Below, piece after piece: positions 18,101-25,382 of a DNA stretch of 44,080 nucleotides (its first letter is position 1; each line of letters begins with the position of its first letter). Below the pieces are notes generated by a model. That model saw only the letters and a program-made list of their open reading frames with translations, was not told the origin of the DNA and did no database searches. The translations under genes and the position numbers were made by a program. The DNA is from a virus (Duplodnaviria > Heunggongvirae > Uroviricota > Caudoviricetes), in IMG/VR virus record IMGVR_UViG_2609460218_000014, positions 1-44,080 of that record. The stretch is one strand, 5' to 3'.

Positions 18101-18964
18101 ATGATCCGCAGTATGACCGCCTACGCCCGGCGTGAAATCAAGGGTGAATGGGGGAGCGCAACCTGGGAAATGCGCTCGGTAAACCAGCGTTATCTGGAAA
18201 CTTACTTTCGTCTGCCGGAGCAGTTCCGTAGCCTTGAACCTGTCGTTCGCGAGCGTATTCGTTCTCGCCTGACGCGCGGTAAAGTGGAATGTANCCTGCG
18301 CTATGAGCCAGATGTTAGCGCACAAGGTGAGCTGATCCTCAATGAAAAACTGGCTAAACAGCTGGTAACTGCCGCGAACTGGGTAAAAATGCAGAGTGAC
18401 GAAGGGGAAATCAACCCGGTTGATATTCTGCGCTGGCCGGGCGTGATGGCAGNCCAGGAGCAGGATCTCGACGCCATTGCCGCTGAAATTCTCGCGGCGC
18501 TGGATGGTACGCTGGACGACTTTATTGTCGCGCGCGAAACCGAAGGTCAGGCACTGAAAGCATTGATCGAGCAGCGTCTGGAAGGCGTCACCGCCGAAGT
18601 GGTCAAAGTCCGCGCCCATATGCCGGAAATCCTGCAATGGCAGCGTGAGCGTCTGGTCGCGAAGCTGGAAGATGCTCAGGTTCAGTTGGAAAACAACCGT
18701 CTGGAGCAGGAGTTGGTTCTGCTGGCACAACGAATTGACGTTGCCGAAGAACTGGACCGCCTGGAAGCGCATGTCAAAGAGACCTACAACATTCTGAAGA
18801 AAAAAGAAGCCGTTGGTCGTCGTCTGGACTTTATGATGCAGGAATTCAACCGCGAGTCGAACACTCTTGCGTCGAAATCTATCAATGCCGAAGTGACAAA
18901 CTCCGCCATCGAGCTGAAAGTGTTGATTGAGCAGATGCGCGAGCAGATTCAGAACATTGAGTAG
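18101..18964 (+). CDS. yicC: YicC-family stress-induced protein
   Basis: 287 aa, MIRSMTAYARREIKGEWGSATWEMRSVNQRYLE...; conserved neighbour of rph. Confidence 0.9.
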   Translation: MIRSMTAYARREIKGEWGSATWEMRSVNQRYLETYFRLPEQFRSLEPVVRERIRSRLTRGKVECXLRYEPDVSAQGELILNEKLAKQLVTAANWVKMQSDEGEINPVDILRWPGVMAXQEQDLDAIAAEILAALDGTLDDFIVARETEGQALKALIEQRLEGVTAEVVKVRAHMPEILQWQRERLVAKLEDAQVQLENNRLEQELVLLAQRIDVAEELDRLEAHVKETYNILKKKEAVGRRLDFMMQEFNRESNTLASKSINAEVTNSAIELKVLIEQMREQIQNIE

Positions 18965-19028: not shown

Positions 19029-19140
19029 ATATCACAAAGTTGCAGTTAGCATCATAAAAGCGCATATTTCTCGTGTACCCAATAGTGTCCCTATGAGGCA
19101 GAGGCATTAAGTAGATAGGGTACGCAACCAATGAGGTGAT

Positions 19141-20396
19141 ATGGGCAAGCTAACAGACATTCAGATCAAGGCCTGGATAAAGGCCGGAACAAGGTTCGAG
19201 GGTAAATCGGACGGTAACGGTTTATATTTGCGCTATCGCACTACTGACACGTCCCCATCATGGCGTTTCCGCTACCGCTTCGCTGGCAAGCCTCGTGTTA
19301 TGACAATTGGCGCGTATGGCGTTATCTCACTGGCTAAAGCCGGGAGATCACCCGAGAGCTGGCTGCTCGTGTTTCTCTGGGGTATGACGTTGCCGGTGAG
19401 AAGCAGGAGCGAAAAGCCGCATTAAAAGCCCAGTTGGAAGCCGACCAGCATGACAAAACAGTGTCCGAAGTAGCTGAAGACTATTTTAAGAAGAAAGTAC
19501 TGGGTACATGGAAACACCCCGACATCCTCCGCCGTCGTCTGGCGAAAGACATTAATCCTCGCATAGGTCAGAAAAAGGTTAAGGACGTCAAACCCCGAGA
19601 TATTGATGCCTTGCTTCAGGCCATCTTAAAACGTGGTGCGCCATCTATTGCTAATGACGTCTTGCGCTGGATACGTCGTATCTTTGACCATGCGATCAAG
19701 CTGGGGATGATTGAGGTTAACCCCGCTGCTGCCTTTGATATGAGTGACGCGGGCGGTAAGGAAACATCTCGTGAACGTTGGTTAACCAGGCAGGAACTGG
19801 TTCAATTCTTTGAAGCCATGCGAATGGCAAAAGGCTTTAGTCGTGAGAACGAGTTAACTCTAAAGCTGCTGCTGGTCACTTGCGTGAGAAAGATGGAACT
19901 GTGCGCCGCACGCTGGAGCGAGTTCGATTTAGCCAACGGCATTTGGTACTTACCGGGCGAACGCACAAAGACAGGCGACGGGATTGATATTCCACTGCCA
20001 AAACAGGCTATCGAATGGTTGGAGGAGCTGCGCCTTCTCTCTTGTAACAGCAAATGGGTATTACCTGCGCGAAAACAACAGCATCGCATGATCCCCCATA
20101 TTCAGGAAAGCACCCTACCCGTTGCGCTGGCGAAGGTTAAGCATGAGATGCCTGGTGTACCGAACTTCACTATTCACGACCTTAGGCGCACCGCACGCAC
20201 CCATCTCGAAGCGTTAGGTGTGAATCCCATTGTTGCTGAGCGTTGCCTTAATCACCGCATCAAAGGCGTCGAGGGCATCTACAACCGTCACCAATATTTA
20301 AACGAACGGCGGGAAGCGCTGGCCATGCTGGGCAACCTGATGGAAGCCTTAGAGCGTGGCGAGGAATACAACGTTCAACCATTGAGGAAAGCATGA
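19141..20396 (+). CDS. Tyrosine integrase, P4 family (arm-binding N-domain plus catalytic domain); frameshifted in this sequence
   Basis: Track ORFs 19141..19425 and 19434..20396; N-terminus KLTDIQIKAW...GNGLYLRYRTT...WRFRYRFAGK and C-terminal HDLRRTARTHL...YNRHQYLNERR are typical. One missing C in a CCC run near 19337 would restore ISLAKAREITRELAARVSLGYDVAGEKQERKAA and a single ~418-aa ORF. Confidence 0.85.
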
Positions 20397-20433: not shown

Positions 20434-20546
20434 CTGTCCCACGCGTCCCATCTGTCCCGTTTTGTAAAGATAAAATAAATTCAATCAGTTACGAACACTA
20501 ACATGGGACAAAACACGGGACAGGACGGGACAAATTTTTCTGTCCC
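20434..20546. repeat. Array of about 7 GGGACA/TGTCCC hexamer repeats in both orientations (putative protein-binding sites)
   Basis: Three TGTCCC-type copies at about 10-bp spacing (20434-20459), an AT-rich spacer, then three GGGACA copies at 10-12 bp spacing and an inverted pair gggacaaatttttctgtccc (20527..20546); lies between int and orf179. Confidence 0.6.
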
Positions 20547-20586
20547 GTCCTCAAATTGAATAAACAATAACCGATAAGGGCAATAA

Positions 20587-21126
20587 ATGAATGATAACAA
20601 CAGTGTCCCAACGATTACGCTTCATGACCCTAAGCCGTGGTATGAGGTAGACCCATTGGTAATAAATGCTATGGAACTGACCGGCGCATCATATGAAGAA
20701 CTTAACGCCGGGGTATCTCTGTGCGTTGACGTTTGGGACGCCGATAGTCCAAATACTTTCCTTATAAATTGCAGGATCAAATGGGTTAAATACACATATG
20801 ACCTCACAGGTTTCGCCATTGCTCGTTATTTTTGGACTAACCCTGAGAAAGACACCCTGCTAAGTGAGGTAGTTACTACTGAATATCAGCGTAGGAGAGA
20901 ATCTCTTGAGCTGGAGATAAAAAAGGAGCGGGAAAAGAACGCCGGTTACGGGAAAACAAACCCGAAAAAAGATGAGATTATTGAAGAGTTTAAATTGTGG
21001 AAAGAAAAATACCCACAAGGCAGTTGTAAACAATTTCATCAACAGCTAACACGGCAAACAAAAAGAGGGGAAAAAGTCCCTTCAGTTAGAAGCATACAAG
21101 ACTGGACGAAAATACTGCGCAATTAA
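20587..21126 (+). CDS. Hypothetical protein (179 aa), island-encoded, no family recognised
   Basis: ORF with a good SD (aaggg 8 nt upstream of ATG); acidic N-half, lysine-rich charged C-half (EIKKEREKNAGYGKTNPKKDEIIEEFKLWKEKYPQ); located between int and alpA. Confidence 0.55.
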   Translation: MNDNNSVPTITLHDPKPWYEVDPLVINAMELTGASYEELNAGVSLCVDVWDADSPNTFLINCRIKWVKYTYDLTGFAIARYFWTNPEKDTLLSEVVTTEYQRRRESLELEIKKEREKNAGYGKTNPKKDEIIEEFKLWKEKYPQGSCKQFHQQLTRQTKRGEKVPSVRSIQDWTKILRN

Positions 21127-21197
21127 AAACAACTGCGCAATTAGCTCGGTATCCTCTCAGTACGTCGCAAATAGACGCGTTCACAGAGGAATTAAAT

Positions 21198-21392
21198 ATG
21201 AAAAATGATTTTCCCTTATCTGGCTACGTTCGCCCTTCTCGGGTGAGCGAATTCCTAGATATAAGCCCGGCCACAATGTGGCGCTGGGCAGCAAAGAGTG
21301 AGTTTCCAAAAAGCCGTAAGCTGAGTTCCCGCGTAACAGTTTTTGATGCCGCAGAAATCAGACGTTGGCTGGCGGCGAAAAGTGCAGATTAA
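21198..21392 (+). CDS. alpA: AlpA-family transcriptional regulator / excisionase-like winged-helix protein
   Basis: 64 aa; VRPSRVSEFLDISPATMWRWAAKSEFPKSRKLSSRVTVFDAAEIRRWL matches the AlpA signature; SD gagga upstream. Confidence 0.85.
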   Translation: MKNDFPLSGYVRPSRVSEFLDISPATMWRWAAKSEFPKSRKLSSRVTVFDAAEIRRWLAAKSAD

Positions 21393-21407: not shown

Positions 21408-21884
21408 ATGAGCTTAATCGCTGAGATTCAAACGGCAGCATCNGGTAAGTGGCCTGCCGTGTTACGTGCTTTAGGCGTCGACGTGCCTGAAAAGCAGGCG
21501 CACATCCCTTGTCCCGTATGTGGCGGCAAAGACCGGTTTCACTTTAAACACGACGATGTAGGTTCGAGTTACTGCCGGGGGTGTAATAAGTGGCGCGACG
21601 GATTACAGCTAGCTCGAGATTGTGGGGCCTCTGTTTCTCAGATCGCCAATGCCGCTGGAATAAACACAACGCGCCACGCGCCGCTAGGCAGGCGAAAGGT
21701 CAGCTTGCCACCACACACAACTGCGTTACTGGCTGGGAAGCAGAAATTAAGGGAGCAGGGTGCAGAATGGATAAAAGTGTGGCTGGACTGTCAGGAGGCA
21801 GCAATTTTATGGCACGAATATGAAAAAAACGGCAGCCCCTTTGAGGAGAGCCGCCGTCTTTATGGACTACATAGACAACTTTAA
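21408..21884 (+). CDS. Primase-type zinc-ribbon protein (Cys-X2-Cys-X17-Cys-X2-Cys), no catalytic primase domain evident
   Basis: 158 aa; CPVCGGKDRFHFKHDDVGSSYCRGC as in primase-helicase zinc-binding domains; strong SD ggaggtg; start overlaps alpA stop. Confidence 0.7.
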   Translation: MSLIAEIQTAAXGKWPAVLRALGVDVPEKQAHIPCPVCGGKDRFHFKHDDVGSSYCRGCNKWRDGLQLARDCGASVSQIANAAGINTTRHAPLGRRKVSLPPHTTALLAGKQKLREQGAEWIKVWLDCQEAAILWHEYEKNGSPFEESRRLYGLHRQL

Positions 21885-21892
21885 TTCTTTGC

Positions 21893-21916
21893 GCTTCCCG
21901 GTTGCCCCCGGGAAGC
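21893..21916 (+). other. Perfect 9-bp stem hairpin between the zinc-ribbon gene and the helicase gene
   Basis: gcttcccgg-ttgccc-ccgggaagc with no following T-run; in the 56-bp gap between the two genes. Confidence 0.4.
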
Positions 21917-21940
21917 AAAACAACAAGGGACATAATCACC

Positions 21941-23377
21941 ATGTCAGAGAATACTGTAACTCACCTACCTCTCAAGTCAACCATGAAAGAACCGGTGTCC
22001 GGTGCGCCAGCACAGGCGGCTAAGTATGATTCTATGCCGCTGGCAAAGATGCAACCCGGCGAACGCATCGCCGCGTTTGTTGCAAAGACTGGCCGTTATT
22101 CACTTCATCGGGCAAGTGATACCTTGTACCGTTTTGATGGTGCTATCTGGCGGGCAATCAGCGATTCAGCTGTGAAAAGTGATTTAGCAGACTTCTACAT
22201 GACCCGCGGCTTTCAACCCGGTGCCAGTGTCTTTGAAAGCGACGCGCGAGCGCTGAAGATATATTCATCGACCAAACAATCTCCAGAGATGGCGGAACCA
22301 AAAGCCGGGGTAATCGCCTTTGCCAACGGCGTTTACTCAATCATAGACGGTTCATTTTCCAGCCATTGTGCGGAAAACTGGTTGCGCTCACATAACGGCA
22401 TAGACTATGCAGCAGCACTCCCCGGAGAGACACTGAGCGGCAGTGCCCCACATTTTAGCAAGTGGCTAGCGCACAATGCCGGTAATGATGAAGCGAAGGC
22501 CAAGCGGATACTGGCGGCTCTGTATATGGTTCTGACTCATCGCTACGAATGGCAGCTATACGTTGAGGTAACTGGCAAAGGTGGTAGCGGTAAGAGTGTA
22601 TTTATGTCTCTGTGCAGATTGCTATCAGGGGAAGACGGCTCAAAGGCTACAACCTTACACGCGCTGCGCGACTCAATGGCTCTAGAAACATTGATTGATG
22701 CCAGGCTCATTACCATGAGTGATCAGCCCGCATATAGCGGCGATTGTGCGAATTTAAAAGCCATTACCGGCGGTGACTCCATTTTCATCAATCCCAAGTA
22801 CAAGAAGGGGTTCGATGCGAAAATTAACGCCGTTGTAGTCGTGGCTAACAACGAACCTGCTGTATTTACTGAGCATAACGGGGGCATATCCCGCCGCCGG
22901 GTACTGTTTAAGTTTGGTGAACCGGTAGAAAGACCTGACCCTGAGTTTATGGCGAAGATAAAAACTGAATTGCCGGTAATCGTGCGTCACTTGCTCAAGG
23001 AATTGGATGATACTACCGCAAAAAGTCTGCTCATCCAGCAACGAGACTCAGAGGAATCGTTTGACGCTAAAGCGGAGGCCAGTAGCATTTACTCCTTCGT
23101 TAAACACCTGGACCCACTGCCAGCGCCTACAGGTATGCGCATGGGTGGCAAGGCATCATCCTCAAACGCGGAGCGGCCCAGAGAGTTCCTTTACCATGCG
23201 TATTTGGCATTTATGCAATACAACGGGTTCCAGAATCCACTTTCGGTTCTGAAATTCAGGCAAGCTGTTATTGCGATAATGAAAGAGCGCGGGCACGAGT
23301 TCGCGGATAAAAGGGACTCCGTTGGTCTCCGCTACAACGTGGAGTTGGCCGAATCAGCCAGCGAATGGCTTCCGTAA
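21941..23377 (+). CDS. SF3 (D5/P4-type) replicative helicase / NTPase, the C-terminal domain family of phage-plasmid primases
   Basis: Track ORF 21902..23377; likely start MSENTVTHLPL; Walker A VTGKGGSGKSVF, Walker B-like LITMSD, sensor-like VVVVANNEP; directly upstream of the iteron region. Confidence 0.8.
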   Translation: MSENTVTHLPLKSTMKEPVSGAPAQAAKYDSMPLAKMQPGERIAAFVAKTGRYSLHRASDTLYRFDGAIWRAISDSAVKSDLADFYMTRGFQPGASVFESDARALKIYSSTKQSPEMAEPKAGVIAFANGVYSIIDGSFSSHCAENWLRSHNGIDYAAALPGETLSGSAPHFSKWLAHNAGNDEAKAKRILAALYMVLTHRYEWQLYVEVTGKGGSGKSVFMSLCRLLSGEDGSKATTLHALRDSMALETLIDARLITMSDQPAYSGDCANLKAITGGDSIFINPKYKKGFDAKINAVVVVANNEPAVFTEHNGGISRRRVLFKFGEPVERPDPEFMAKIKTELPVIVRHLLKELDDTTAKSLLIQQRDSEESFDAKAEASSIYSFVKHLDPLPAPTGMRMGGKASSSNAERPREFLYHAYLAFMQYNGFQNPLSVLKFRQAVIAIMKERGHEFADKRDSVGLRYNVELAESASEWLP

Positions 23378-23425: not shown

Positions 23426-23466
23426 ATTCCATCGATAGATCAGAATATTTAGNTTTTTTTATGAAA

Positions 23467-23690
23467 GTCCTACATGTCTTACACCAAATGAAATTAAATT
23501 ATATATAACAATAAATTAGATAATGTAGGACCTTAAAAATATCCTACACAGGTCCTACATAACTCCTGCACTCGAAGCCTCGTAGTGTAGGGTTTAAGGA
23601 AGCCCCTCGCCAGTCCTACACAAGTCCTGCACTTTCTAACAAATTGTTTTAAATGATTTTTTTAATGGAGAATGTAGGAGTGTAGGACAT
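23467..23690. repeat. Iteron cluster (about 8 copies of GTCCTACA / TGTAGGAC in both orientations) next to an AT-rich stretch: putative island replication origin
   Basis: Copies at about 23467, 23523, 23543, 23552, 23585, 23613, 23672, 23681; preceded by an AT-rich segment (23440-23520); no ORF of 60 aa or more on either strand between 23378 and 24087. Confidence 0.6.
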
Positions 23691-24195
23691 GAAGGACTTT
23701 CCAGGAAAAACTATATTTTGAATATTTGAGCCTAAAAAATGGACACCCTTGCGCTACGCGCCGCTAGGCAGGGAAAGTGGTTTTCATAACATGTATTTAA
23801 CAATCGCATTCCCATTCGGAACCAGCGGGCCGGAATGATCCTGATACAGGCGTTCAGCATGGAGTGAGAATCAACGTTTTTTGATGCCCTACTGACCCCA
23901 GATTAATCTTTGGTCGGTAGCGGGAAGCCTTCGTTCTGGTCAGGGTAATGTCAGGGTGATGCTTACGTTTTATGACTATTTTAGTTAGCAATAGTTAGCA
24001 ACCTACTCAAATCAAAACTTCTCAAAGTTAATTCCTAAAACGAAAAAGCCCCCACATTTCTGTAGGGGCCGTTTCGTCATTCTGCGCTTGATGGTCGGAA
24101 GGATGGCCGACAAATATATACTATCTCTTTATGTACTCACGAACCAGTACGATAGTACAATAAGCCGTCAATTCTTCAAAATGATGGTGATAGCG

Positions 24196-24588
24196 ATGAA
24201 CGAAGTAGATTCAATTCTGGCCGAGCAGAAAAGAGCCGCAGAACAACGCCGCTTGGCTAATGAGAAGAAGCGCCATCCATCCGGCCTGTACGCCGTTGGT
24301 GATGGGTGGTATGTGAAGCAAATCGAAGAGCTTCACTCCCCGCTTGGTCTTAGCAAGGTGGTTCTGGTAAGCCCTGATGATGTTTGTGTGAGATATCAGC
24401 GCCAATATGGCAAAGCACTCACCACTGACAAATTGAAGGAATGGAGCAGGGACGGGAACTTCCCTTTGCCGCGCTCTATTAATGGGGTTATCGGTTGGGA
24501 ATCGAATGTTGTGACCAATGGCCTGAATGAACTGAGCAAAGCAGCCGGTCGAGGTTATACCAGTATTACACGAGGGTTCGCACGATGA
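24196..24588 (+). CDS. Hypothetical protein (track ORF 24088..24588, 166 aa; likely start at MNEVD giving about 130 aa), first gene of cargo cassette
   Basis: Protein-like composition; SD-like ggtgat upstream of the internal ATG; stop overlaps the next ORF start (ATGA). No family recognised. Confidence 0.5.
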   Translation: MNEVDSILAEQKRAAEQRRLANEKKRHPSGLYAVGDGWYVKQIEELHSPLGLSKVVLVSPDDVCVRYQRQYGKALTTDKLKEWSRDGNFPLPRSINGVIGWESNVVTNGLNELSKAAGRGYTSITRGFAR

Positions 24589-25183: not shown

Positions 25184-25382
25184 CTTACACAAAATTACAA
25201 TTGGTCATAAATCACACAATAAAAATTGTAATCCCTGTAAATCCATGTACCCATACGTGTACACAAGCAAAACAAGAAAAACAAAAATCATTTAAATATC
25301 AATACATATAACCCACAATTCAATATTCAGATTCAATATTGAGTAACTCGTAACACTAATTCTTACTTTTCAGCCTTCACAA

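What the first reader, a model, noticed from the sequence alone, without database searches (positions are those of the whole stretch)
20434..20546. Helically phased GGGACA/TGTCCC repeat array downstream of int
About seven hexamer copies at 10-12 bp spacing in two oppositely oriented groups plus a perfect inverted pair, directly upstream of the orf179-alpA-primase-helicase operon. Phasing on one face of the helix suggests cooperative binding by a regulator (AlpA-like or orf179 product) or integrase arm-type sites.
Basis: seen in the sequence. Interest (0 to 1): 0.5.

Follow-up and report, generated by a model that had tools for sequence, protein, structure and literature searches.

The report
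Orphan replication-origin-like repeat cassette
The repeat array is real and conserved, but it is most likely a second copy of the replication-origin cassette of a family of small E. coli satellite-like islands, left beside the integrase gene after this island swapped its replication genes, and not a binding site for AlpA, orf179 or the integrase.

Summary
20435-20546 carries six exact GGGACA/TGTCCC copies and one degenerate copy (CGTCCC). They form three left copies (9-bp spacing), a 46-bp 76%-AT spacer, three right copies (12 and 10 bp), and an outer inverted copy that makes a perfect 11-bp inverted repeat.

The window holds a ~6.4-kb P4/PICI-like island inserted in the 3' end of yicC. All 15 sibling islands that carry the array keep the hexamers, while linkers, the first gene, the AlpA type and the replicase type vary.

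In siblings with a Toprim+DUF927 replicase, the same cassette also sits just 3' of the helicase gene, the canonical PICI origin position. There it is 94-95% identical in reverse complement to sibling int-side arrays. A Citrobacter relative has a different motif (CGGTTTCA) at both positions.

This island carries a D5/DUF5906 replicase instead. Its own origin iterons are GTCCTACA (23467-23697) and covary with the helicase C-terminus. Lesions in the int-side array occur only in D5-type islands, and one D5-type sibling lacks it.

Best reading: an origin-type iteron cassette matched to DUF927-type initiators, non-cognate here. orf179, integrase arm sites and AlpA are disfavoured. No binding or replication was tested.

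The parts
20435..20458 (+). Left iteron set: TGTCCC (20435), degenerate CGTCCC (20444) and TGTCCC (20453), spaced 9 bp apart.
   Evidence: The middle copy is TGTCCC in every sibling island.
20459..20504 (.). 46-bp AT-rich spacer (76% A+T, against 52% for the island). Candidate DNA-unwinding region.
   Evidence: The spacer is 46 bp in all int-side arrays and 46-48 bp in origin-position arrays.
20505..20532 (+). Right iteron set: GGGACA at 20505, 20517 and 20527 (spacing 12 and 10 bp), in the opposite orientation to the left set.
   Evidence: These copies are invariant in siblings, and several siblings have four copies.
20522..20551 (.). Perfect inverted repeat AGGACGGGACA-N8-TGTCCCGTCCT, containing the outer inverted TGTCCC copy (20541-20546).
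   Evidence: As RNA it folds at about -21 kcal/mol with z = -3.05. The right arm is not conserved: it reads TGCCCC or TGGCCC in many siblings. No T-run follows it.
20552..20586 (+). Conserved leader and ribosome-binding site, running up to the start codon of the variable first gene.
   Evidence: In alignments A1, homology among islands continues to the ATG although the first genes are unrelated.
19141..20396 (+). P4-type tyrosine integrase (Arm-DNA-bind_3, Phage_int_M and Phage_integrase domains). Frameshifted in this window into 94-aa and 320-aa pieces.
   Evidence: Siblings carry an intact 418-aa gene.
20587..21126 (+). orf179, a variable first gene occupying a cargo hotspot. Not the likely binder.
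21198..21392 (+). alpA (Phage_AlpA / HTH_17), type A.
21408..23377 (+). Resident replication genes: a Zn-ribbon primase-helicase protein (21408-21884) and a D5_N/DUF5906/Pox_D5 helicase (21902-23377). The helicase C-terminal ~90 aa (about 23102-23377) covaries with the iteron type.
23467..23697 (.). Resident (cognate) origin: ten GTCCTACA-like iterons in both orientations around AT-rich stretches, immediately 3' of the helicase gene.
   Evidence: There is no other cluster of this motif in the island.
18956..18963 (+). attL core ATTGAGTA, overlapping the yicC stop codon.
   Evidence: by comparison with the empty site L395.
25338..25345 (+). attR core ATTGAGTA.

Best explanation
The array is an origin-of-replication-type iteron cassette. 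It has two opposed sets of three TGTCCC iterons flanking a 46-bp AT-rich spacer, the layout on which replicative initiator-helicases assemble. It is a paralogue of the true origin of the Toprim+DUF927 members of this family of yicC-inserted P4/PICI-like islands.

In those members the same cassette occurs twice, in inverted orientation. One copy lies after int at the head of the replication operon and the other lies just 3' of the helicase gene. I infer that the int-side copy serves there as a second initiator-binding locus, for copy control or handcuffing and/or autoregulation of the operon, as with P4 crr or P1/F iteron control loci.

The island in this window has exchanged its replication module for a D5/DUF5906 helicase whose own iterons are GTCCTACA (23467-23697). 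Here the GGGACA array is therefore most likely a non-cognate leftover under relaxed selection, carried along with the int module.

Shown: the architecture, the paralogy, the covariation, the module swap and the lesion pattern. Inferred: that the DUF927-type replicase is the binder, and what the int-side copy does.
For: [quoted passage not shown]

(2) All DUF927-type siblings inspected (LR-06, 09A22, ET490, L37, ES3, Kluyvera, L441, L443, L444) carry TGTCCC x3-4, a 46-48-bp AT-rich spacer and GGGACA x3 immediately 3' of the helicase gene, in addition to the int-side array.

(3) The origin-position cassette of Kluyvera and ET490, read in reverse complement, is 94-95% identical over 109 bp, spacer included, to the int-side cassette of 09A22 and L441, and 78% identical to the window's. 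In the forward orientation the figures are 73-74% and 67%.

(4) Covariation. Citrobacter island L129/L458 (Int 70% identical) has CGGTTTCA repeats in the same 3-spacer-2(+1) layout after int. GAAACCG copies start 116 bp after the stop of its 915-aa PriCT_2/DUF927 replicase.

(5) DUF927-type helicases only 32-36% identical, in other backbones (L112, L028, L046), also have TGTCCC arrays just 3' of the gene and none after int.

(6) In viral contigs, 16 of 26 clean paired TGTCCC arrays lie within 300 bp of the 3' end of a large replicase gene, and only 3 lie near a 5' end.

(7) In D5-type islands the origin iterons differ (GTCCTACA; GTCC(A/G)TCA; CTACTACAC) and track the helicase allele, while the int-side array stays TGTCCC. 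Window-type and PSS-10-type helicases are 100% identical over residues 81-360 but only 81-87% identical after residue 400. ET474 is divergent throughout.

(8) L443 has the window's int, array, orf179 (98%) and AlpA (97%) joined to a DUF927 replicon. This shows the module swap directly.

(9) Lesions in the int-side array occur only in D5-type islands: CGTCCC here, GGGGCA in 2017CC, ET474 and LR-71-1, TGCCCC in 30EVA2, and the whole array absent in L442. By contrast, 9 of 9 DUF927-type islands have every copy exact.
Against: No binding or replication assay exists, so the binder is inferred from position and covariation only.

Five of the seven D5-type islands still keep the core 3+3 copies exact. 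These islands are recent mosaics, so the intact copies may reflect youth or a replicase-independent function.

The lesion contrast involves few and partly non-independent events; the GGGGCA change is probably a single event.

The Citrobacter origin-position array is cut off by the end of the fetched locus, so only two copies are seen.

The array sits exactly where an operon promoter or operator would be expected, and the leader down to the RBS is conserved.

Replicases next to TGTCCC arrays in viral contigs belong to several unrelated families (AAA_25, VapE, DUF5906, DUF927, Prim-Pol). The hexamer alone therefore does not identify one binding domain.

TGTCCC and GTCCTACA share GTCC, so weak cross-recognition by the resident helicase is not excluded.
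Confidence: 0.6

Rival explanations
1. The array is a transcriptional control region of the orf179-alpA-replicase operon. It would be an activator- or repressor-binding site flanking a weak promoter in the AT-rich spacer, bound by AlpA (known to activate its own promoter in EcCICFT073) or by a helper-phage inducer.
For: The array lies directly upstream of the operon and has a conserved leader and RBS. No consensus sigma-70 promoter or terminator lies between int and orf179, which is compatible with a factor-dependent promoter. TAAAAT lies 12 nt after the last left copy. In EcCICFT073, AlpA is auto-activating and alpA expression is helper-induced (PMC6092414). In low-GC viral contigs a TGTCCC triplet sits 12-13 nt upstream of a -10 box, next to an activator gene. 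The array is conserved whatever the replicase type.
Against: The hexamers are invariant across two AlpA types that are about 42% identical. Each AlpA type has its own inverted repeat immediately upstream of alpA. The same cassette, spacer included, sits inverted at the origin position after the helicase terminator. The array motif changes together with the origin motif in Citrobacter. L442 lacks the array altogether yet keeps the operon. An AlpA profile hits only 2 of 120 TGTCCC-array contigs. No enterobacterial phage with a close DUF927 relative was found.
Confidence: 0.2
2. The array is still a working replication element in this island. It would be either a second origin or crr-like site used by the resident D5-type helicase through cross-recognition of the shared GTCC core, or a site used in trans by DUF927-type replicases of co-resident elements.
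For: The core 3+3 copies and the exact 46-bp spacer are retained. The iterons TGTCCC, GTCCTACA and GTCCRTCA share GTCC. From my own knowledge, P4 needs two separated iteron clusters, ori and crr.
Against: Origin iterons in D5-type islands track the helicase allele tightly, which argues for high specificity. No GTCCTACA-like copy lies in or near the array. D5-type islands show lesions and one complete loss of the array.
Confidence: 0.12
3. The repeats are integrase arm-type binding sites.
For: The repeats are short, in two orientations and next to int. Int has an Arm-DNA-bind_3 domain. The TGTACCC-like arm repeats resemble TGTCCC, and one arm position in the window actually reads GTGTCCC.
Against: The array lies 1.47 kb from the att core, with int in between. 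Neither att arm carries a conserved TGTCCC. In Citrobacter L129 the arm repeats remain TGTACCC while the array motif is CGGTTTCA. TGTCCC arrays occur far from any int in other elements.
Confidence: 0.03
4. The functional unit is the RNA/DNA hairpin formed by the perfect inverted repeat, acting as an int terminator or a leader attenuator, and the other copies are incidental.
For: The stem has 11 bp, folds at about -21 kcal/mol and scores z = -3.05.
Against: There is no T-run and no terminator call. The right arm is mutated in most siblings without compensating changes. A hairpin does not explain six conserved copies around a spacer of fixed length.
Confidence: 0.03

Closest known systems
[quoted passage not shown]
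   Same: Two opposed sets of short iterons surround an AT-rich stretch of about 46 bp. Sibling islands carry the very same cassette at the canonical position 3' of the helicase gene.
   Different: This copy lies after int, at the 5' end of the operon. Its iterons do not match those of the resident replicase's origin (GTCCTACA, 23467-23697).
Satellite phage P4 ori plus crr (own knowledge: Flensburg & Calendar 1987; Ziegelin et al. 1993)
   Same: The setting is a P4-type integrase, an AlpA/Vis-like gene and a primase-helicase. In DUF927-type siblings two clusters of the same iteron lie about 4.2 kb apart.
   Different: The iteron sequence and the replicase family differ. No requirement in cis has been shown. 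In this island the two clusters have different motifs.
Iteron plasmid control loci (P1 incC-repA-incA, F incB-repE-incC; own knowledge)
   Same: Iteron arrays lie on both sides of the rep gene or operon. The upstream array lies at the promoter, where Rep binding autoregulates and handcuffs.
   Different: The initiator families are unrelated. Here the element is an integrated satellite-like island, and there are no functional data.
Lambda-type integrase arm sites
   Same: Short repeats in direct and inverted orientation lie close to int.
   Different: The repeats are not in the att arms. The motif differs from the TGTACCC arm repeats and does not covary with Int.
Pseudomonas aeruginosa AlpA binding element GGGACG (PMC9371919)
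   Same: The hexamer differs by one base, and the window's degenerate copy is exactly GGGACG.
   Different: That AlpA is a Q-like antiterminator, unrelated to the 64-aa Phage_AlpA protein here, and it binds a single site between -35 and -10. No such protein was found here: orf179 has no PDB sequence match.

Membership tests
PICI/SaPI-type iteron origin | Two sets of short repeats flanking an AT-rich region | tested here: met
   There are 3 left and 3 right opposed hexamers around a 46-bp spacer with 76% A+T. The definition comes from PMC6092414.
PICI/SaPI-type iteron origin | Located immediately 3' of the replication initiator gene | tested here: not met
   The array lies between the int stop and orf179. 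The position 3' of the helicase gene is occupied by GTCCTACA iterons.
PICI/SaPI-type iteron origin | Iteron sequence cognate to (covarying with) the element's own initiator | tested here: not met
   In D5-type islands the origin iterons track the helicase allele, while this array stays TGTCCC. TGTCCC matches the origins of DUF927-type siblings.
PICI/SaPI-type iteron origin | Supports initiator-dependent replication | not testable with these tools
   This needs a plasmid maintenance or replication assay.
Second iteron locus (P4 crr / P1 incA-like) | A second cluster of the same iterons as the origin, within one replicon | tested here: not met
   The feature is not met in this island (TGTCCC against GTCCTACA). 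It is met in 9 DUF927-type siblings and, as far as the truncated locus shows, in Citrobacter L129.
Second iteron locus (P4 crr / P1 incA-like) | Affects replication, copy number or rep expression | not testable with these tools
Integrase arm-type sites | Lie in the att arms, within about 200 bp of the core | tested here: not met
   The core ATTGAGTA is at 18956-18963 and 25338-25345. The array starts 1.47 kb from attL.
Integrase arm-type sites | Motif shared with the repeats next to attL/attR and covarying with Int | tested here: not met
   The arm repeats are TGTACCC-like in the E. coli islands and in Citrobacter, whereas the array motifs are TGTCCC and CGGTTTCA respectively.
AlpA (Phage_AlpA/HTH_17) operator | Motif covaries with the AlpA allele | tested here: not met
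   The hexamers are identical with AlpA type A and type B, which are about 42% identical. Type-specific inverted repeats lie directly upstream of alpA.
AlpA (Phage_AlpA/HTH_17) operator | Bound by AlpA | not testable with these tools
   This needs EMSA or footprinting.
Intrinsic terminator | GC-rich hairpin followed by a T-run | tested here: not met
   A hairpin is present, but there is no T-run and no terminator call. The right arm is not conserved.
Q-like antiterminator loading site (Pae AlpA ABE) | A Q-like protein encoded nearby and a single site between -35 and -10 | tested here: inconclusive
   orf179 has no sequence match in the PDB or in Pfam. No consensus promoter was found. No fold comparison was made.

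The most novel reading that the evidence does not exclude
The retained non-cognate cassette may not be a relic. It could be an incompatibility or decoy element. All these islands compete for one attachment site (the yicC 3' end). A D5-type island carrying a full set of TGTCCC iterons could therefore titrate or handcuff the DUF927-type initiator of a rival sibling island. Alternatively, it could hitch-hike on that initiator for its own amplification. More generally, iteron cassettes flanking the replication operon would be a P4-crr-like copy-control system of PICI-like satellites that has not been described.
Probability: 0.12. Interest if true: 0.6.

Novelty: new variant of a known kind. Interest (0 to 1): 0.4.

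Why it matters
The result re-assigns a conspicuous repeat array from "regulator or integrase site" to the replication system. It also shows that a family of very small yicC-inserted satellite-like islands carries its origin cassette twice, inverted, on both sides of the replication operon, and exchanges replication modules independently of the int-linked copy.

If the int-side copy acts in copy control or in competition between islands, it offers a simple and testable model for how PICI/P4-like satellites regulate replication and exclude each other.

For annotation, the lesson is that the iteron motif, and not position alone, tells which replicase an array belongs to.

Tried and rejected
orf179 as the binder. 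It has no hit in Pfam, PHROGs, NCBIfam or the PDB and only 2 homologue clusters. A shared "PSVR" HTH-like motif that I saw by eye in other first-gene families was not supported by profile comparison (probability 0.3%).

AlpA as the common factor of TGTCCC arrays. An AlpA profile hits 2 of 120 contigs.

A common origin-binding domain in the replicases next to TGTCCC arrays. BLAST clustering plus hhalign on the C-terminal 160 aa gave at least five unrelated groups. Pfam shows AAA_25, DUF5906, VapE, DUF927 and Prim-Pol.

TGTCCC as a universal or special motif. Inverted partners are commoner than for control hexamers (46/120 against 4/120 and 15/120). However, the hits collapse into roughly a dozen lineages by my own rough count, so independent reuse of one hexamer is sufficient and no universal host factor is needed.

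A packaging (cos/pac) site. Arrays in viral contigs lie upstream of terS/TerL modules, but this is explained by the replication module preceding the late genes. The spacer has no cos-like sequence.

A helper-phage link. tblastn of the DUF927 helicase against GenBank phages gave no close enterobacterial relative. blastn of the array against phages gave only noise.

Relatives of the window's helicase in IMG/VR: none found.

Completing the Citrobacter origin-position array: there was no match in E. coli genomes or viral contigs.

Literature on TGTCCC/GGGACA repeats and on P4 crr in the held library: nothing relevant.

orf166 as an Xis-like DNA binder: no Pfam support.

Full report
**What is in the sequence**

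Window 20435-20546 carries TGTCCC at 20435 and 20453 and a degenerate CGTCCC at 20444. A 46-bp spacer with 76% A+T follows. Then come GGGACA at 20505, 20517 and 20527, and an outer TGTCCC at 20541. That last copy completes a perfect 11-bp inverted repeat, AGGACGGGACA-N8-TGTCCCGTCCT.

The start-to-start spacing is 9 and 9 bp in the left group, 12 and 10 bp in the right group, then 14 bp to the outer copy.

The window as a whole is not enriched for the hexamer (19 copies against 14.6 expected). Six copies in 112 bp, however, compare with a maximum of 2 in 300 Markov resamplings.

**Context**

The window is E. coli chromosome. A ~6.4-kb island lies between yicC and dinD. Comparison with an empty site places the 8-bp core ATTGAGTA at the yicC stop codon (18956-18963) and again at 25338-25345.

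All island genes are on the + strand:
- a P4-type integrase, frameshifted in this window
- orf179
- alpA (Phage_AlpA)
- a Zn-ribbon primase-helicase protein
- a D5_N/DUF5906/Pox_D5 helicase
- three small ORFs

Downstream of the helicase gene lies a second, different repeat array: GTCCTACA iterons at 23467-23697.

**Conservation**

I compared sibling islands at the same locus:
- eleven besides the window from E. coli genomes and Kluyvera
- six related metagenome contigs, of which L440 is the window's own island, L442 lacks the array and L445 is short with a decayed array

The left triplet and the right three or four copies are invariant, and the spacer is always 46 bp. The linkers, much of the spacer and everything downstream vary.

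Homology between islands runs through int and the array and stops at the start codon of the next gene. That gene belongs to at least five unrelated families. AlpA occurs in two types about 42% identical. Int is 84-98% identical.

The replication module comes in two kinds: Zn-ribbon plus D5/DUF5906 as here, or Toprim plus DUF927.

**The key comparison**

Every DUF927-type island has a second array right after the terminator of its helicase gene. It reads TGTCCC x3-4, a 46-48-bp AT-rich spacer, then GGGACA x3. [quoted passage not shown]

The origin-position cassette of Kluyvera and ET490, read in reverse complement, is 94-95% identical over 109 bp, spacer included, to the int-side cassette of 09A22 and L441. 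It is 78% identical to the window's array. The forward-orientation figures are 73-74% and 67%. The int-side array and the canonical origin are therefore the same cassette in inverted orientation.

D5-type islands instead carry GTCCTACA (window, 30EVA2), GTCC(A/G)TCA (PSS-10, 2017CC, LR-71-1) or CTACTACAC (ET474) at the origin position. These types follow the helicase. Window-type and PSS-10-type proteins are 100% identical over residues 81-360 but only 81-87% identical after residue 400. ET474 is divergent throughout. In that class, origin iterons are read by the replicase allele, and TGTCCC is not its motif.

**Covariation**

A Citrobacter amalonaticus island (L129, also L458; Int 70% identical; same yicC insertion) has the same layout after int, but with CGGTTTCA/TGAAACCG repeats. 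GAAACCG copies begin 116 bp after the stop of its 915-aa PriCT_2/DUF927 replicase, at the point where the fetched locus ends. The att-arm repeats of that island are still TGTACCC, as in E. coli.

So the array motif changes together with the origin motif and not with the integrase.

DUF927-type helicases only 32-36% identical, in other backbones (L112, L028, L046), also have TGTCCC arrays 3' of the gene and no array after int.

**Module swap and relaxed constraint**

Metagenome contig L443 has the window's int, array, orf179 (98%) and AlpA (97%), followed by a DUF927 replicon with a TGTCCC origin. Its int-side array has every copy exact: 3 left, 4 right and the outer copy.

The window's island is thus the same backbone with the replication module exchanged.

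All nine DUF927-type islands have only exact copies. Among seven D5-type islands:
- the window has CGTCCC
- 2017CC, ET474 and LR-71-1 have GGGGCA in the fourth right copy
- 30EVA2 has TGCCCC in the outer copy
- L442 lacks the array altogether, with its first gene starting 54 bp after int

Counting five lesioned D5-type islands against none of nine DUF927-type islands gives a hypergeometric p of about 0.005 by my own arithmetic. The events are few and partly shared by descent, so this is only suggestive.

**Wider occurrence**

Of these, 46 have at least two inverted copies within 180 bp, against 4 and 15 for two control hexamers.

In 26 clean paired arrays, 16 lie within 300 bp of the 3' end of a large replicase gene and 3 lie near a 5' end. 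The replicases belong to several unrelated families, and I found no common C-terminal domain.

I read this as one general origin architecture with the hexamer reused in about a dozen lineages by my own rough count, and not as evidence for a universal binder.

A separate low-GC class has a single triplet 12-13 nt upstream of a -10 box, beside a sigma-r4/Alt-like activator gene and terS. There the hexamer seems to serve transcription.

**Rivals**

orf179 is excluded as a specific binder. It is a variable, orphan gene.

Integrase arm sites are excluded by distance (1.47 kb from the core), by motif (TGTACCC in the arms) and by the Citrobacter comparison.

AlpA is disfavoured. The hexamers are invariant across two AlpA types. 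Each type has its own inverted repeat 25-35 bp upstream of alpA. The cassette also sits at origin positions, and in elements without detectable AlpA.

A promoter or operator role cannot be excluded. No consensus promoter or terminator lies between int and orf179. The leader is conserved. AlpA-dependent, helper-induced transcription is documented for EcCICFT073. In iteron replicons the two roles usually coincide.

The perfect inverted repeat folds well as RNA (z = -3.05). It lacks a T-run, however, and is not conserved.

The one-base resemblance to the P. aeruginosa AlpA element GGGACG concerns an unrelated Q-like protein, and I treat it as coincidence.

**Verdict**

The array is a real, conserved cis element. 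It is best explained as an origin-type iteron cassette belonging to the DUF927-type replicons of this island family, sitting as a second inverted copy at the head of the replication operon.

In this window it is non-cognate to the resident D5-type replicase and probably a relic or a trans-acting site (confidence 0.6). The binder and the function of the int-side copy are inferred, not shown.

It is a new variant of a known kind of element, of moderate interest.

Noticed in passing
window 23467-23697: There is a second, different iteron array: ten GTCCTACA-like copies in both orientations around two AT-rich stretches, immediately 3' of the D5-type helicase gene. It is the probable resident origin. 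The iteron type covaries with the helicase allele among siblings.
   Followed up: yes
window 18956-18963 and 25338-25345: The island inserts into the 3' end of yicC. The 8-bp core ATTGAGTA is duplicated, and the island supplies a new stop codon. No tRNA gene is present in the window.
   Followed up: yes
window 19073-19124 and 25246-25266: Probable integrase arm-type repeats are TGTACCC-like: GTGTACCCA, a variant GTGTCCC, an inverted GGGTAC, and on the attR side ATGTACCCA and CGTGTACACA. They are conserved in siblings and in the Citrobacter island.
   Followed up: partly
window 19141-20396: The integrase reading frame is broken into 94-aa and 320-aa pieces, where siblings have an intact 418-aa gene. 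The window also has an N at 23453 and one inside orf97, so this may be a sequencing error and not a pseudogene.
   Followed up: partly
window 20587-21126 (orf179) and equivalents in L002-L006, L128, L391-L393: The first gene after the array is a swap hotspot with at least five unrelated families of 179-282 aa. The junction lies exactly at the start codon, behind a conserved leader. orf179 itself has only two homologue clusters in 5.8 billion proteins.
   Followed up: partly
window 21109-21143 and about 21162-21179: A direct repeat ACTGCGCAATTA x2 spans the orf179 stop. A small inverted repeat CGTC-N7-GACG lies about 20 bp upstream of alpA. AlpA type B islands have a different inverted repeat (CGGGGATATCCCG) at the same place. 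These are candidate AlpA-type-specific elements.
   Followed up: partly
window 24088-24588 (orf166): By eye, the C-terminal part (TTDKLKEWSRDGNFPLPRSINGVIGWES) resembles an Xis/AlpA-type winged helix, which would make it a possible excisionase. No Pfam or NCBIfam hit supports this. orf166, orf65 and orf97 are the most conserved island proteins across replicase types.
   Followed up: partly
L397-L434 (IMG/VR), L137-L143, L028, L112: first ~100 bp after int: Islands with 57-69% identical integrases carry, in place of the array, a conserved long hairpin-like element (for example GATTGAGCC...N40...GGCTCAATC) just before the first gene. Its nature is unknown.
   Followed up: no
L010-L020, L053 and similar low-GC viral contigs: A TGTCCC x3 triplet sits 12-13 nt upstream of a TATAGT/TACAAT -10 box, directly after a sigma-r4/Alt-like activator gene (phrog_36) and upstream of terS/TerL. 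It looks like a late-promoter element that uses the same hexamer.
   Followed up: partly
L442 (metagenome contig UMET01014687.1) 11254-11310: This D5-type sibling island has a 99% identical integrase but lacks the whole GGGACA array. Its first gene starts 54 bp after the int stop.
   Followed up: partly
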